Shown: positions 13,457-15,800 of the stretch, piece by piece
How the letters are laid out: every line of letters starts with the position of its first letter
Position numbering within the stretch: position 1 is the first letter of the stretch
IMG/VR virus record: IMGVR_UViG_2531839473_000014
DNA: 22,459 nt
Source: a virus
Lineage: Duplodnaviria; Heunggongvirae; Uroviricota; Caudoviricetes
Strand: one strand, 5' to 3'
The notes under the pieces: model-generated
What the model was told of the DNA's origin: nothing
Databases searched by the model: none
Seen by the model: only the letters and a program-made list of their open reading frames with translations
Program-made: the position numbers and the translations under genes

Positions 13457-14125
13457 GTGGATGGTGCAGGCCTGAAATCATGATACTAACAATGAAGGTA
13501 AAATGCATCGGCAGTCTGATTGGCCGTAGTGAGGCGGCGGTCAGGATGAAAGCCCGGGTTAAGGGAATAAGCCTGATTCTGCGGGGTGATTTTCACCAGT
13601 CAACAAAATATCCGTAGCGCGATAACGGTCAAAAATCATGGCGCTGACACTTTTGTGCCACTGGAGATGACTGTACCTAAGTTCAGGGGAGAAGAACACG
13701 TCCGGTGGGATGGTCGGGCCAGATTTAAAGGGCAGGTCATGGCTCCAGCCTGTACGCTGGCAATGGAGGCTGCCTGGCGGGAAATTGATATGGGAACCAC
13801 GCCACTCAGGGATTTACTGCCGGTCCAGAGAATAAATTCCTGTTACGGTTACACCACTGTGATCTTGCAAGTGCAGGAGAGTAGGTCTACACGGTAACGC
13901 GAGTGCGTGTAACTTTTGATGTCATTCCCGTAGAAACACCGGACAAATTTTCGCTGACAGGTCATGCTGAAGGTATAAATCTGCAGATTATGGACAATTA
14001 CGGATATCCGGCAAGAGCCGGAAAAAGCATGCCGCCTCTAATTCTCAGTGGAAGATGGACTTGATTATACTCATTGCATTGTCAGAAATAGTTATCCATT
14101 AAAGGCTGGCTATTCCAAACAGGAT

Positions 14126-14149
14126 GTTGATTACAAAAATGTAATCAAC
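14126..14149. promoter_or_regulatory. Perfect inverted repeat GTTGATTACA-AAAA-TGTAATCAAC upstream of the binding-protein gene (candidate operator)
   Basis: 10-bp arms, 4-bp spacer, read directly; just upstream of a TATAAT hexamer at 14178-14183. Confidence 0.3.
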
Positions 14150-14315
14150 ATGTAAGGTTTATACTCTTCAATATGCGTATAATTTTCCTTATTTTGTTAA
14201 CTTTAAATAACAAACTATGCACGAGGTAAAGTCGGATAAGTTTATCTGGATGTAATATATATTATTTGTAGTGTTTATAACTTTATTTCATGATAACCAA
14301 TAAAAGGAGTTTTTT

Positions 14316-15074
14316 ATGAGGAACATAATGGCAGGTTTTTTAATATTCCTGTCTTCTGCTGCTTATGCTGATATCAATCTGTATGGTCCTGGTGGCCCGC
14401 ATACAGCCTTGCTTGATGCAGCCAAACTTTATGCCGAAAAAACAGGTATTATAGTGAACGTTCATTACGGCCCACAGAACAAATGGAATGAAGATGCCAA
14501 AAAAAATGCAGATATCTTGTTTGGCGCATCAGAACAATCTGCTCTGGCTATCATTCGGGACCATAAAGACAGCTTCAGTGAAAAAGATATTCAGCCTCTT
14601 TATCTGCGAAAAAGTATTTTATTGGTAAAGAAAGGTAATCCTAAAAATATCCGGAGTATTGACGACCTGACCAGACCCGGGATTGGCGTAATTGTTAATG
14701 ATGGTGGTGGTACCAGTAATACATCAGGCACTGGCGTCTGGGAAGATATTGCCGGACGTAAAGGGAATATAGAAACTGTCGCCGCAATCCGAAAAAATAT
14801 TATTTTATATGCGCCCAACAGCGGAACTGCACGTAAGGCTCTTGAGAATCAGCCTGAAGCAGATGTCTGGATAACCTGGGCTGACTGGGCAGCCAGTAAT
14901 CCAGAAATTGGTGATGTCGTGGAAATAGCGCCAGACTACGTGATATGGCGTGATATGAACATTACAGTACGTCAGGATGCAAATGATGAAACCCGTCGAT
15001 TTGCAGAATGGCTACAAACCGATGAAGCGGCGCCTGCATTCAAAAAATATGGCTGGACCAGGAAAGGCACTTGA
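14316..15074 (+). CDS. Periplasmic substrate-binding protein, ModA/TupA-like type 2 fold, 252 aa, orphan (no transporter partners)
   Basis: AAAAGGAG SD; Sec signal peptide MRNIMAGFLIFLSSAAYA then DINLY; overall layout and C-terminal FKKYGWT resemble ModA (FKRYGFT, recalled). AT-rich compared with the flanking phage genes. Confidence 0.75.
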   Translation: MRNIMAGFLIFLSSAAYADINLYGPGGPHTALLDAAKLYAEKTGIIVNVHYGPQNKWNEDAKKNADILFGASEQSALAIIRDHKDSFSEKDIQPLYLRKSILLVKKGNPKNIRSIDDLTRPGIGVIVNDGGGTSNTSGTGVWEDIAGRKGNIETVAAIRKNIILYAPNSGTARKALENQPEADVWITWADWAASNPEIGDVVEIAPDYVIWRDMNITVRQDANDETRRFAEWLQTDEAAPAFKKYGWTRKGT

Positions 15075-15080
15075 CATCCT

Positions 15081-15109
15081 CCACGTCCTTCAGGACGTGG
15101 ATTCTTTTT
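15081..15109 (+). terminator. Intrinsic terminator after the binding-protein gene
   Basis: CCACGTCC-TTCA-GGACGTGG followed by ATTCTTTTTCC, 7 bp after the stop codon. Confidence 0.65.
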
Positions 15110-15337
15110 CCGGATGCCGCGCCAGCGGCATGTAGGGGCAGCTCACAAAACGGAAAAAATTGTACGCTAAGCCTCGCCAGGTGAACTGAATTCATTCCGA
15201 TATGGGAATTCCCATATCGGGCGAAAACGGTTTGCTGTAACGGCAGAGTTAAGTAGAATTGCTGCGGGTGCTTGAGGCTATCTGCCTCGTGTTTAACTGT
15301 CCAACTTTTTGGGGTCAGTACAAAGTGAGGCCCCTAT

Positions 15338-15550
15338 ATGCTCGTCACATATAGATTGCCTCTTACGGACCGAAAGGTCAAGGAGAAGCAGGCTATGAAG
15401 CAGCAAAAGGCGATGCTAATCGCCCTGATCGTCATCTGTTTAACCGTCATAGTGACGGCACTGGTAACAAGGAAAGACCTCTGCGAGGTACGAATCCGAA
15501 CCGGCCAGACGGAGGTCGCTGTCTTCACAGCTTACGAACCTGAGGAGTAA
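15338..15550 (+). CDS. mok: Mok-like overlapping reading frame of the hok locus, 70 aa
   Basis: ORF begins upstream of hok and reads through it in the same frame, as in hok/mok loci; whether it is translated here is not known. Confidence 0.45.
   Translation: MLVTYRLPLTDRKVKEKQAMKQQKAMLIALIVICLTVIVTALVTRKDLCEVRIRTGQTEVAVFTAYEPEE
15395..15550 (+). CDS. hokD: Hok/Gef-family membrane toxin (type I toxin-antitoxin), 51 aa, HokD/RelF-like
   Basis: Translation MKQQKAMLIALIVICLTVIVTALVTRKDLCEVRIRTGQTEVAVFTAYEPEE; AAGGAG SD; single transmembrane helix plus conserved C-terminal tail. Confidence 0.85.
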   Translation: MKQQKAMLIALIVICLTVIVTALVTRKDLCEVRIRTGQTEVAVFTAYEPEE

Positions 15551-15618
15551 GAGACCAGGCGGGGGAGAAATCCCTCGCCACCTCTGATGTGTCAGGCATC
15601 CTCAACGCACCCGCACTT

Positions 15619-15641
15619 AACCCGCTTCGGCGGGTTTTTTG
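15619..15641 (+). terminator. Intrinsic terminator at the 3' end of the hok mRNA
   Basis: AACCCGC-TTCG-GCGGGTT followed by TTTTTT. Confidence 0.6.
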
Positions 15642-15800
15642 TTGTGCAGCGTAGTTGATTAGCTTTTTGTGTACTCCTTTGGTTGTGGTTCTTGAGGGGC
15701 CGTTTGGAGTAAATAGAATCATATTGCTTAGTTAGCGCGCAGGGAGAAGAGGGATGGACCCCAAACAGGGGAATGCTAATTATCCGGAAGGATTCTGCTG

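What the first reader, a model, noticed from the sequence alone, without database searches (positions are those of the whole stretch)
13900..15110. Orphan periplasmic binding-protein gene as a self-contained moron
A ModA/TupA-like binding protein with a Sec signal peptide sits alone with its own AT-rich upstream region, a perfect 10-4-10 inverted repeat (14126..14149) and its own terminator, between the replication module and the hok/Q region. No permease or ATPase gene accompanies it. It could scavenge an oxyanion or metal for a host transporter, or act as a surface/periplasmic decoy.
Basis: partly seen in the sequence, partly recalled or inferred. Interest (0 to 1): 0.5.

Follow-up and report, generated by a model that had tools for sequence, protein, structure and literature searches.

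The report
Known prophage colonisation gene paa/adfO

Summary
A 252-aa ORF (14316-15074, +) has a Sec-type signal peptide, an AT-rich leader, a perfect inverted repeat and its own terminator. The repeat is 12-4-12 at 14124-14151, longer than the 10-4-10 reported. The ORF lies between the replication genes and hokD/Q of a Rac-like prophage, with no permease or ATPase gene nearby.

The gene is paa/adfO. RefSeq names it "AcfC family adhesin Paa". The region is 100% identical to E. coli RM9088, where this locus (FRV13_09320) was published in 2023. About 585 of 5,426 complete E. coli genomes carry it.

The protein matches the solved structures of C. jejuni PEB3 (E 4e-82) and V. cholerae AcfC (E 1.5e-81). 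An AlphaFold model superposes on AcfC at TM 0.90-0.97. ModA and sulfate-binding proteins are only distant fold relatives. Being an orphan is a family trait: none of eight diverse genomic contexts has a dedicated transporter.

The gene, its palindrome, a conserved TATAAT and the terminator move together as a roughly 1-kb cassette among IncF plasmids and prophages. Here it is fused to a PapH-like fimbrial pseudogene and sits in a variable cargo slot.

The mechanism is still open: true adhesin, or periplasmic anion sensor or uptake protein. Novelty: already known. Interest: low.

The parts
13622..14155 (+). PapH-like fimbrial minor-subunit pseudogene (frameshifted, internal stop, lacks its 3' end), fused upstream of the paa cassette. 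DNA homology to intact chromosomal fimbrial genes runs 13650-14114.
   Evidence: RefSeq pseudogene at L002:8723-9256. The two ORF fragments are 75% and 90% identical to the PSUO2 fimbrial protein. blastn gives 85-89% to fimbrial genes and a weaker hit to papH.
14124..14151 (.). Perfect 12-4-12 inverted repeat at the left edge of the paa cassette. Candidate operator; function not shown. Not a canonical terminator, since no T-run follows on either strand.
   Evidence: The core ATTACA-AAAA-TGTAATCAA is conserved in the Escherichia cassettes (one substitution in E. albertii), but the outer arms are not kept by compensatory changes. The repeat plus its flanks occurs only at paa loci in E. coli genomes.
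14178..14183 (+). Candidate -10 hexamer TATAAT with a weak -35. This would put the repeat centre near -52. Inferred only.
   Evidence: Read from the sequence. Invariant in all 7 Escherichia paa cassettes aligned. The consensus scanner did not call it because the -35 is poor.
14304..14309 (+). Shine-Dalgarno AAGGAG, 6 nt before the ATG at 14316.
   Evidence: AAAGGA is conserved in the Escherichia cassettes. Homologues start M-K/R-K, which supports M1 over the M5 start used in the PPompW phage records.
14316..15074 (+). paa/adfO coding sequence including the stop codon (252 aa): AcfC/PEB3-family class II periplasmic solute-binding protein.
14316..14369 (+). Sec signal peptide, residues 1-18 (MRNIMAGFLIFLSSAAYA). 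Predicted cleavage before D19.
   Evidence: Low pLDDT over residues 1-20. The crystallised mature PEB3 aligns from residue 19. AcfC was shown to be periplasmic by fractionation (PMC5976639).
14715..14735 (+). Anion-binding loop S134-N-T-S-G-T-G140. T136/S137 correspond to PEB3 T138/S139.
   Evidence: S134, T136, S137, G138, T139 and G140 are invariant and N135 is at least 90% conserved in 39 family members. PEB3 numbering was checked against the K135E entry 3fir. The ligand role of T138/S139 is recalled from Min et al. 2009 and was not read here.
15080..15110 (+). Intrinsic terminator (stem 15080-15101 plus T-run), 6 nt after the stop codon. It marks the right edge of the cassette shared with plasmids.
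   Evidence: Plasmid homology ends at window 15078-15101.
15197..15220 (.). Second perfect palindrome (12-0-12, CCGATATGGGAATTCCCATATCGG) between the paa terminator and the hok/sok locus. Whether it belongs to the paa unit is uncertain.
   Evidence: The segment 15100-15289 travels with paa in O157:H7.

Best explanation
The gene is paa (porcine attaching-effacing associated gene, also called adfO in O157:H7). It is a lysogenic-conversion cargo gene in the early-region variable slot, between the DUF1627 gene and hokD, of a Rac-like prophage integrated at ttcA.

Shown here: the protein is a 252-aa pre-protein with a Sec signal peptide. Its mature part is a two-lobed class II solute-binding protein about 52-57% identical to the crystallised PEB3 and AcfC, and it keeps the family's invariant SNTSGTG anion-binding loop. 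The gene, its AT-rich leader (palindrome plus conserved TATAAT) and its terminator move as a roughly 1-kb cassette between IncF plasmids and prophages. The family is orphan everywhere sampled.

From the literature: paa and adfO mutants adhere less well to host cells and tissue. adfO is transcribed from the lysogen and induced in bovine rumen and rectal contents. PEB3 binds 3-phosphoglycerate and PEP. AcfC is periplasmic, binds sulfated glycans and promotes chemotaxis to mucin.

Inferred mechanism: Paa is exported to the periplasm and closes on a small anionic host- or mucus-derived ligand (phospho- or sulfo-compound). It promotes colonisation indirectly, by passing that signal or ligand to a host-encoded partner such as a chemoreceptor or transporter, rather than by acting as a classical surface adhesin. 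I put about 0.55 on the indirect route and about 0.3 on direct adhesion. The palindrome about 40 nt upstream of the conserved TATAAT is most likely a binding site for a host regulator. That is inferred, not tested.
For: Identity: 99-100% DNA identity to loci annotated paa / 'AcfC family adhesin Paa' / 'Paa/AdfO' in PPompW phages and E. coli chromosomes. The RM9088 locus FRV13_09320 is described as Paa in PMC10562709. The adfO/OI-57 review is PMC8565820.

Fold and family: Pfam SBP_bac_11 1.6e-34. PDB hits PEB3 4e-82 and AcfC 1.5e-81. The AF2 model has pLDDT 91.3 and superposes on 4jb7 at TM 0.90/0.97, rmsd 1.1 A. Forty-two columns are invariant, including the SNTSGTG loop apart from N135, which is at least 90% conserved.

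Orphan family.

Cassette and moron features.

Expression from the lysogen: PMC8524897.

Homologue biochemistry: PMC5976639, PMC12469816 and PMC3417527, and the ligand-bound PDB titles.
Against: Paa's own ligand, localisation and partner were not and could not be tested here. The primary Paa, AdfO and PEB3 papers (Batisson 2003, Ho 2008, Rangarajan 2007, Min 2009) are not in the held library, so they are cited only through later papers.

The homologues' ligands disagree with each other: phospho-carboxylates, sulfated glycans, D-Asp. AcfC showed no cell-adhesion phenotype, whereas Paa and AdfO did, so function may differ within the family.

The promoter and the operator role of the palindrome rest on conservation alone. 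The outer arms of the palindrome are not maintained in diverged cassettes.
Confidence: 0.85

Rival explanations
1. Paa is a true non-fimbrial adhesin. A fraction reaches the cell surface or is released, and it binds host-cell or mucus structures such as sulfated glycoconjugates directly, mediating the early attachment step.
For: The literature calls Paa, AdfO and PEB3 adhesins, and mutants adhere less. AcfC binds heparin, chondroitin sulfate and mucin in ELISA. Family genes repeatedly sit beside pilus or fimbrial loci: the fimbrial pseudogene here, FaeA/TcfC genes in Aeromonas and the TCP/ToxT island in Vibrio.
Against: The protein has an ordinary periplasmic SBP fold with a Sec signal. It has no lipobox and no outer-membrane anchor or autotransporter domain. 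AcfC and PEB3 are periplasmic, and AcfC gave no adhesion phenotype. A review notes that the 'adhesin' label on the PEB proteins is doubtful.
Confidence: 0.3
2. One reading: a ModA/TupA-like oxyanion or metal scavenger that hands molybdate, tungstate or sulfate to a host ABC transporter such as ModBC or CysTWA.
For: Same fold superfamily. ModA and sulfate-binding proteins are the next-best structural matches after AcfC and PEB3. There are weak local sequence hits to Sbp and SubI.
Against: Identity to ModA is only 11-19%, at TM about 0.65-0.73. NCBIfam sulfate and thiosulfate SBP models score 19-23 bits against cut-offs of 155-308, and no ModA model hits. The close homologues, at about 52-57% identity, bind organic phospho-, carboxy- or sulfo-ligands. 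E. coli already encodes ModA, Sbp and CysP (general knowledge).
Confidence: 0.07
3. An inert hitch-hiker: a remnant of a broken fimbrial or plasmid island that landed in the prophage and is not used.
For: It is fused to a fimbrial pseudogene and lies in a slot filled with miscellaneous cargo in related prophages.
Against: The ORF is intact and held at 99% identity or more in about 563 records, with all family-invariant residues preserved. It is transcribed and regulated in EDL933. Mutant phenotypes are reported.
Confidence: 0.03

Closest known systems
Paa / AdfO of porcine EPEC, ETEC and EHEC O157:H7 (Z2053, O-island 57 / CP-933O; PPompW prophages)
   Same: The same gene. The protein is 99-100% identical. 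The fimbrial-pseudogene-paa-hok arrangement is the same, and the 1,211-bp region is 99.2% identical in O157:H7, O55:H7, O111 and O145. adfO is reported always to accompany the hok-like ckf gene.
   Different: The carrier differs. Here it is a Rac-like prophage at ttcA that also encodes LT-II and a pertussis-like toxin. Downstream of 15290 the hok region diverges from the O157 version.
PEB3 of Campylobacter jejuni (PDB 2HXW, 3FJ7, 3FIR)
   Same: Alignable along the whole mature length (E 4e-82; 52% identity in the structural alignment), same fold (TM 0.88/0.96), same SNTSGTG loop including T/S at the PEB3 T138/S139 positions, and orphan gene organisation.
   Different: PEB3 is N-glycosylated at a DFNVS sequon that Paa lacks (Paa has DSFSE). 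PEB3 K135 is T133 in Paa. peb3 is chromosomal and BumR-regulated, not on a mobile element. Paa's ligand is untested.
AcfC of Vibrio cholerae (VC_0841; PDB 4JB7)
   Same: The best structural match (TM 0.90/0.97, rmsd 1.1 A, 52% identity). Also a horizontally acquired colonisation factor on a virulence island beside pilus genes.
   Different: acfC lies in an operon downstream of the chemoreceptor-like acfB under ToxT control. paa is monocistronic with no chemoreceptor gene nearby. AcfC showed no cell-adhesion phenotype.
ModA / Sbp / CysP oxyanion-binding proteins of ABC importers
   Same: Class II (cluster D) two-lobed SBP fold and the Pfam SBP_bac_11 superfamily.
   Different: 11-19% identity. 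Fails the curated family models. No cognate permease or ATPase genes nearby.

Membership tests
AcfC/PEB3/Paa family of orphan periplasmic solute-binding proteins | Full-length sequence similarity to PEB3 and AcfC (about 250 aa, roughly 50% identity or more) | tested here: met
   phmmer against PDB: PEB3 4.1e-82 and AcfC 1.5e-81 over residues 11/16-248. 99% identical to the cluster named 'AcfC family adhesin Paa'.
AcfC/PEB3/Paa family of orphan periplasmic solute-binding proteins | N-terminal Sec signal peptide (periplasmic export) | tested here: met
   MRNIMAGFLIFLSSAAYA|D read from the translation. All 39 aligned members have an equivalent hydrophobic N-terminus. Export itself was not tested.
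AcfC/PEB3/Paa family of orphan periplasmic solute-binding proteins | Class II two-lobed SBP fold superposable on the PEB3 and AcfC crystal structures | tested here: met
   AF2 model pLDDT 91.3. Foldseek: 4jb7 TM 0.90/0.97, rmsd 1.1; 3fj7 TM 0.88/0.96.
AcfC/PEB3/Paa family of orphan periplasmic solute-binding proteins | Conserved anion-binding loop SNTSGTG, including the positions of PEB3 T138/S139 | tested here: met
   S134, T136, S137, G138, T139 and G140 are invariant and N135 is at least 90% conserved in 39 sequences. Aligned to PEB3 S136-G142. The ligand role of T138/S139 comes from memory of Min et al. 2009.
AcfC/PEB3/Paa family of orphan periplasmic solute-binding proteins | No dedicated ABC permease or ATPase genes next to the gene | tested here: met
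   None in the window. None dedicated in 8 diverse genomes. Two have a neighbouring but complete ABC system with its own SBP.
AcfC/PEB3/Paa family of orphan periplasmic solute-binding proteins | Contribution to adherence or intestinal colonisation | not testable with these tools
   Reported for paa and adfO mutants, seen here only through secondary sources.
ModA / TupA molybdate-tungstate binding proteins | Match to curated ModA family models, and oxyanion-pocket-level similarity | tested here: not met
   No ModA model among NCBIfam hits at E <= 0.001. Foldseek to ModA structures gives TM 0.65-0.73 at 11-19% identity, well below AcfC and PEB3.
ModA / TupA molybdate-tungstate binding proteins | Encoded with modBC/tupBC permease and ATPase genes | tested here: not met
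   The neighbours are a fimbrial pseudogene and hokD.
Sulfate/thiosulfate-binding proteins Sbp/CysP | Score above the curated NCBIfam cut-off | tested here: not met
   22.7, 21.6 and 19.0 bits against cut-offs of 288, 155.5 and 308.
Phage moron (autonomous lysogenic-conversion unit) | Sits between conserved phage modules in a slot that holds different or no cargo in related phages | tested here: met
   Related prophages carry DUF4406/DUF4752/Ea22-like genes or an ORF6N gene between the DUF1627 gene and hokD. Only 11 of 50,697 phage records hold the paa block.
Phage moron (autonomous lysogenic-conversion unit) | Base composition different from the surrounding phage genes | tested here: met
   GC is 0.33-0.41 across the leader and 5' half of the gene, against 0.50-0.60 upstream.
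Phage moron (autonomous lysogenic-conversion unit) | Own terminator | tested here: met
   Stem 15080-15101 plus T-run, -16 kcal/mol, z = -4.3.
Phage moron (autonomous lysogenic-conversion unit) | Own promoter active in the lysogen | tested here: inconclusive
   A conserved TATAAT at 14178-14183 with a poor -35, not called by the scanner. Transcription in uninduced EDL933 is reported, but the start site is unknown.

The most novel reading that the evidence does not exclude
A prophage- and plasmid-borne orphan binding protein re-tunes host behaviour. Periplasmic Paa captures a mucus- or host-derived phospho- or sulfo-metabolite and docks on a chromosomal chemoreceptor or transporter, as AcfC is proposed to do with AcfB. 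In that case the 'adhesion' phenotype would really be phage-conferred chemotaxis or nutrient sensing. The conserved palindrome would be the operator through which a host regulator switches the cassette on in the rumen and rectum.
Probability: 0.2. Interest if true: 0.5.

Novelty: already known. Interest (0 to 1): 0.15.

Why it matters
paa/adfO is a routinely typed virulence marker of EPEC, ETEC and EHEC, so finding it here adds no new biology. Its mechanism is still unsettled: the sequence and fold say periplasmic ligand-binding protein, while the name says adhesin. The small additions from this work are these. The gene, its palindrome-bearing leader and its terminator form one roughly 1-kb cassette shared by IncF plasmids and prophages. 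The prophage copy is fused to a PapH-like fimbrial pseudogene. The whole AcfC/PEB3/Paa family is orphan across eight diverse genomes. These points give defined targets for ligand-pocket and operator mutagenesis.

Tried and rejected
1. ModA/TupA or sulfate-SBP membership: rejected.

2. The palindrome as an intrinsic terminator of the upstream fimbrial fragment: rejected. No T-run follows on either strand, and the repeat belongs to the paa cassette, not to the fimbrial homology, which ends at 14114.

3. The palindrome as part of a wider regulon: a 40-nt query found it only at paa loci. This search cannot detect degenerate sites.

4. From memory I compared the palindrome with FNR, CRP, Fur, LexA, TyrR, PurR and CpxR consensus sites. 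None fits. No tool was used for this.

5. A structured leader RNA or riboswitch: no Rfam hit in 13500-15800 apart from sub-threshold sok and isrK downstream. The consensus fold of six leaders is only -4 kcal/mol.

6. The scanner's promoter at 14042-14071 lies in the fimbrial fragment and is not part of the conserved cassette, so I did not adopt it.

7. 'Fragment of a larger transporter operon': rejected after inspecting eight contexts.

8. The primary papers (PMC166039, PMC2346697, PMC2206636, PMC4957749) could not be read because they are not held.
Full report
**Observation**

The region holds one substantial ORF, 14316-15074 on the + strand (252 aa).
- The N-terminus, MRNIMAGFLIFLSSAAYA|DINLYG, is a Sec-type signal peptide with an A-Y-A cleavage motif and no lipobox cysteine.
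- AAGGAG lies 6 nt before the ATG.
- The inverted repeat is real and longer than reported: a perfect 12-4-12 at 14124-14151. Its hairpin is -14.3 kcal/mol, z = -4.7.
- Only two perfect repeats with arms of 12 nt or more exist in the 22-kb window, against 0.03 expected from dinucleotide shuffles.
- A terminator follows the stop codon: a 9-bp stem at 15080-15101 plus a T-run.
- GC drops to 0.33 over 14000-14450, against 0.50-0.60 upstream.

**What it is**

Megablast against phage records gives 99.2% identity to eleven records carrying the PPompW prophage, some of them joint Stx2a-phage/PPompW entries. There the ORF is annotated [quoted passage not shown].

Among complete E. coli genomes, 585 of 5,426 carry at least 80% of the 1,211-bp region. 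Most are at 99% identity or more, and the annotation is "paa: AcfC family adhesin Paa | fimbrial protein".

Strain RM9088, from a crow, is 100% identical. The window corresponds to the left arm of its Rac-like prophage at ttcA: intR, xisR, ralR, recT, recE, kilR, the immunity region, DnaT-like and P replication genes, a DUF1627 gene, paa, hokD, a Q-like gene, and lysis genes with two toxin operons. The RM9088 genome paper already names this locus (FRV13_09320) as Paa (PMC10562709). In O157:H7 the same gene is adfO (Z2053) of O-island 57, reported always to accompany the hok-like ckf gene (PMC8565820).

**Protein family**
- Pfam SBP_bac_11, E 1.6e-34.
- Against PDB sequences: PEB3 of C. jejuni 4.1e-82, AcfC of V. 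cholerae 1.5e-81. Sulfate-binding proteins appear only at E 1e-4 to 1e-3.
- An AlphaFold2 model built on 39 homologues has mean pLDDT 91.3.
- Foldseek puts AcfC 4JB7 first (TM 0.90/0.97, rmsd 1.1 A), then the PEB3 entries. ModA structures follow at TM about 0.65-0.73 with 11-19% identity.
- NCBIfam sulfate and thiosulfate SBP models score 19-23 bits against cut-offs of 155-308, and no ModA model hits.

In an alignment of 39 family members from Enterobacterales, Aeromonas, Vibrio, Francisella, Helicobacter and Campylobacter, 42 positions are invariant. They include S134, T136, S137, G138, T139 and G140 of the loop S134-N-T-S-G-T-G140; N135 is at least 90% conserved. T136/S137 align with PEB3 T138/S139. 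PEB3 numbering was checked against the K135E entry 3FIR. From memory of Min et al. 2009, these are the ligand-contact residues whose mutation abolishes 3-phosphoglycerate and PEP binding.

**Orphan status**

The window has no permease or ATPase gene. I also looked at eight diverse genomic contexts:

| Genome | Context |
|---|---|
| Edwardsiella | single gene; a complete ABC system with its own binding protein lies nearby |
| Enterobacter | single gene; a complete ABC system with its own binding protein lies nearby |
| Aeromonas | single gene, next to FaeA and TcfC fimbrial genes |
| Francisella | single gene |
| Campylobacter | single gene |
| Helicobacter | single gene |
| Vibrio | ToxT/TagA island |
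| Salmonella | single gene on a mobile element |

None has a dedicated transporter.

**Anatomy of the mobile unit**

Plasmid copies at 86-90% identity, mostly IncF and often from pigs, share homology only from window 14112-14130 to 15078-15101. That is, from the palindrome to the terminator.

I aligned the upstream regions of seven Escherichia cassettes:
- The leader is part of the cassette.
- The palindrome core ATTACA-AAAA-TGTAATCAA is conserved (one substitution in E. albertii), and so are a TATAAT at 14178-14183 and the Shine-Dalgarno.
- The outer arms of the palindrome are not maintained by compensatory changes. That fits a DNA (protein-binding) element better than an RNA one.
- The -35 is poor. 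The palindrome centre would lie near -52 if transcription starts a few bases after the TATAAT. This is inferred only.

No Rfam family or conserved leader fold was found. The palindrome with its flanks occurs only at paa loci in E. coli.

Immediately upstream, 13622-14155 is a frameshifted PapH-like fimbrial-subunit pseudogene. Its fragments are 75-90% identical at protein level to an intact chromosomal fimbrial gene. The prophage therefore acquired a block of about 1.5 kb, "fimbrial fragment + paa cassette".

In related prophages the same slot, between the DUF1627 gene and hokD, holds unrelated cargo. Together with the low GC and the terminator, this supports the moron description. An own promoter is plausible but unproven. 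Transcription in uninduced EDL933, induced in rumen and rectal contents, is reported (PMC8524897).

**Mechanism**

The literature is divided.
- paa and adfO mutants adhere less, and adfO mutants secrete less of several proteins.
- PEB3 is now described as a transport or binding protein for phospho-metabolites such as 3-PG.
- AcfC is periplasmic, binds sulfated glycosaminoglycans and mucin, affects chemotaxis to mucin, and showed no cell-adhesion role. Its crystal holds D-Asp.

Paa has an ordinary periplasmic SBP architecture with no surface anchor. I therefore favour an indirect role at about 0.55: periplasmic capture of an anionic host or mucus ligand, passed to a host chemoreceptor or transporter. 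I give direct adhesion about 0.3, oxyanion scavenging about 0.07, and an inert remnant about 0.03.

**Verdict**

The finding is a correct description of a known gene. Novelty: already known. Interest: low (0.15). What remains open is Paa's ligand, its partner, and the function of the conserved palindrome.

Noticed in passing
window 17850-19068 and 20422-21562: Two AB5-type toxin operons lie in the late region of the same prophage. One is a Pertussis_S1/scabin-like ADP-ribosyltransferase (17850-18575) with a subtilase-family B subunit (18586-19068). [quoted passage not shown] This matches the Rac-like LT-II / pertussis-like-toxin prophages described by Jobling 2016.
   Followed up: partly
window 15197-15220: A second perfect palindrome, CCGATATGGGAATTCCCATATCGG (12-0-12, contains an EcoRI site, -18.3 kcal/mol, z = -5.0), lies between the paa terminator and the hok/sok locus. 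It and the paa-upstream repeat are the only two perfect repeats with arms of 12 nt or more in the 22-kb window, and they bracket paa. The segment 15100-15289 travels with paa in O157:H7. Function unknown.
   Followed up: partly
window 13622-14155; L003 1-6258: The fimbrial pseudogene fused to paa is most similar to the second subunit gene of an intact chaperone-usher operon in APEC strain PSUO2. That operon lies just downstream of pgtB-pgtA, the regulators of phosphoglycerate transport, and an IS21 remnant. PEB3 binds 3-phosphoglycerate, so the adjacency is curious, but it may be coincidence.
   Followed up: no
L009 6001-12762; L014 1-5750; window 13622-14155: Family members are repeatedly linked to pilus or fimbrial loci on mobile islands. 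In Aeromonas the paa homologue is next to FaeA-like regulator and TcfC usher genes, beside AlpA and YfjJ island genes. In Vibrio the homologue lies in a T2SS/TCP-like ToxT island. In E. coli paa is fused to a fimbrial pseudogene.
   Followed up: partly
window 14316 vs 14328: Start-codon discrepancy between annotations. RefSeq uses M1 (252 aa). The PPompW phage records and the PHROG profile start at M5 (248 aa). Homologue N-termini (M-K/R-K...) and the AAGGAG 6 nt upstream favour M1.
   Followed up: yes
window 15266-15397 and 15559-15640: Sub-threshold Rfam matches: sok antitoxin RNA (37.9 bits, gathering 59) overlapping the mok/hok leader, as expected for a hokD locus, and an isrK-like sRNA (30.5 bits, gathering 50) just downstream of hok.
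   Followed up: no
window 15290 onward: The paa block is 99% identical between RM9088 and O157:H7 up to about 15289. The sequences then diverge, and the RM9088 hok leader resembles copies found next to IS150 and mok elsewhere. This suggests a recombination breakpoint just downstream of the paa block.
   Followed up: no
L007 1313-6750: In Enterobacter bugandensis the paa homologue sits 690 bp downstream of a complete FbpABC-like ABC importer that has its own SBP_bac_11 binding protein. This is the only context sampled where use of a neighbouring transporter is conceivable.
   Followed up: no
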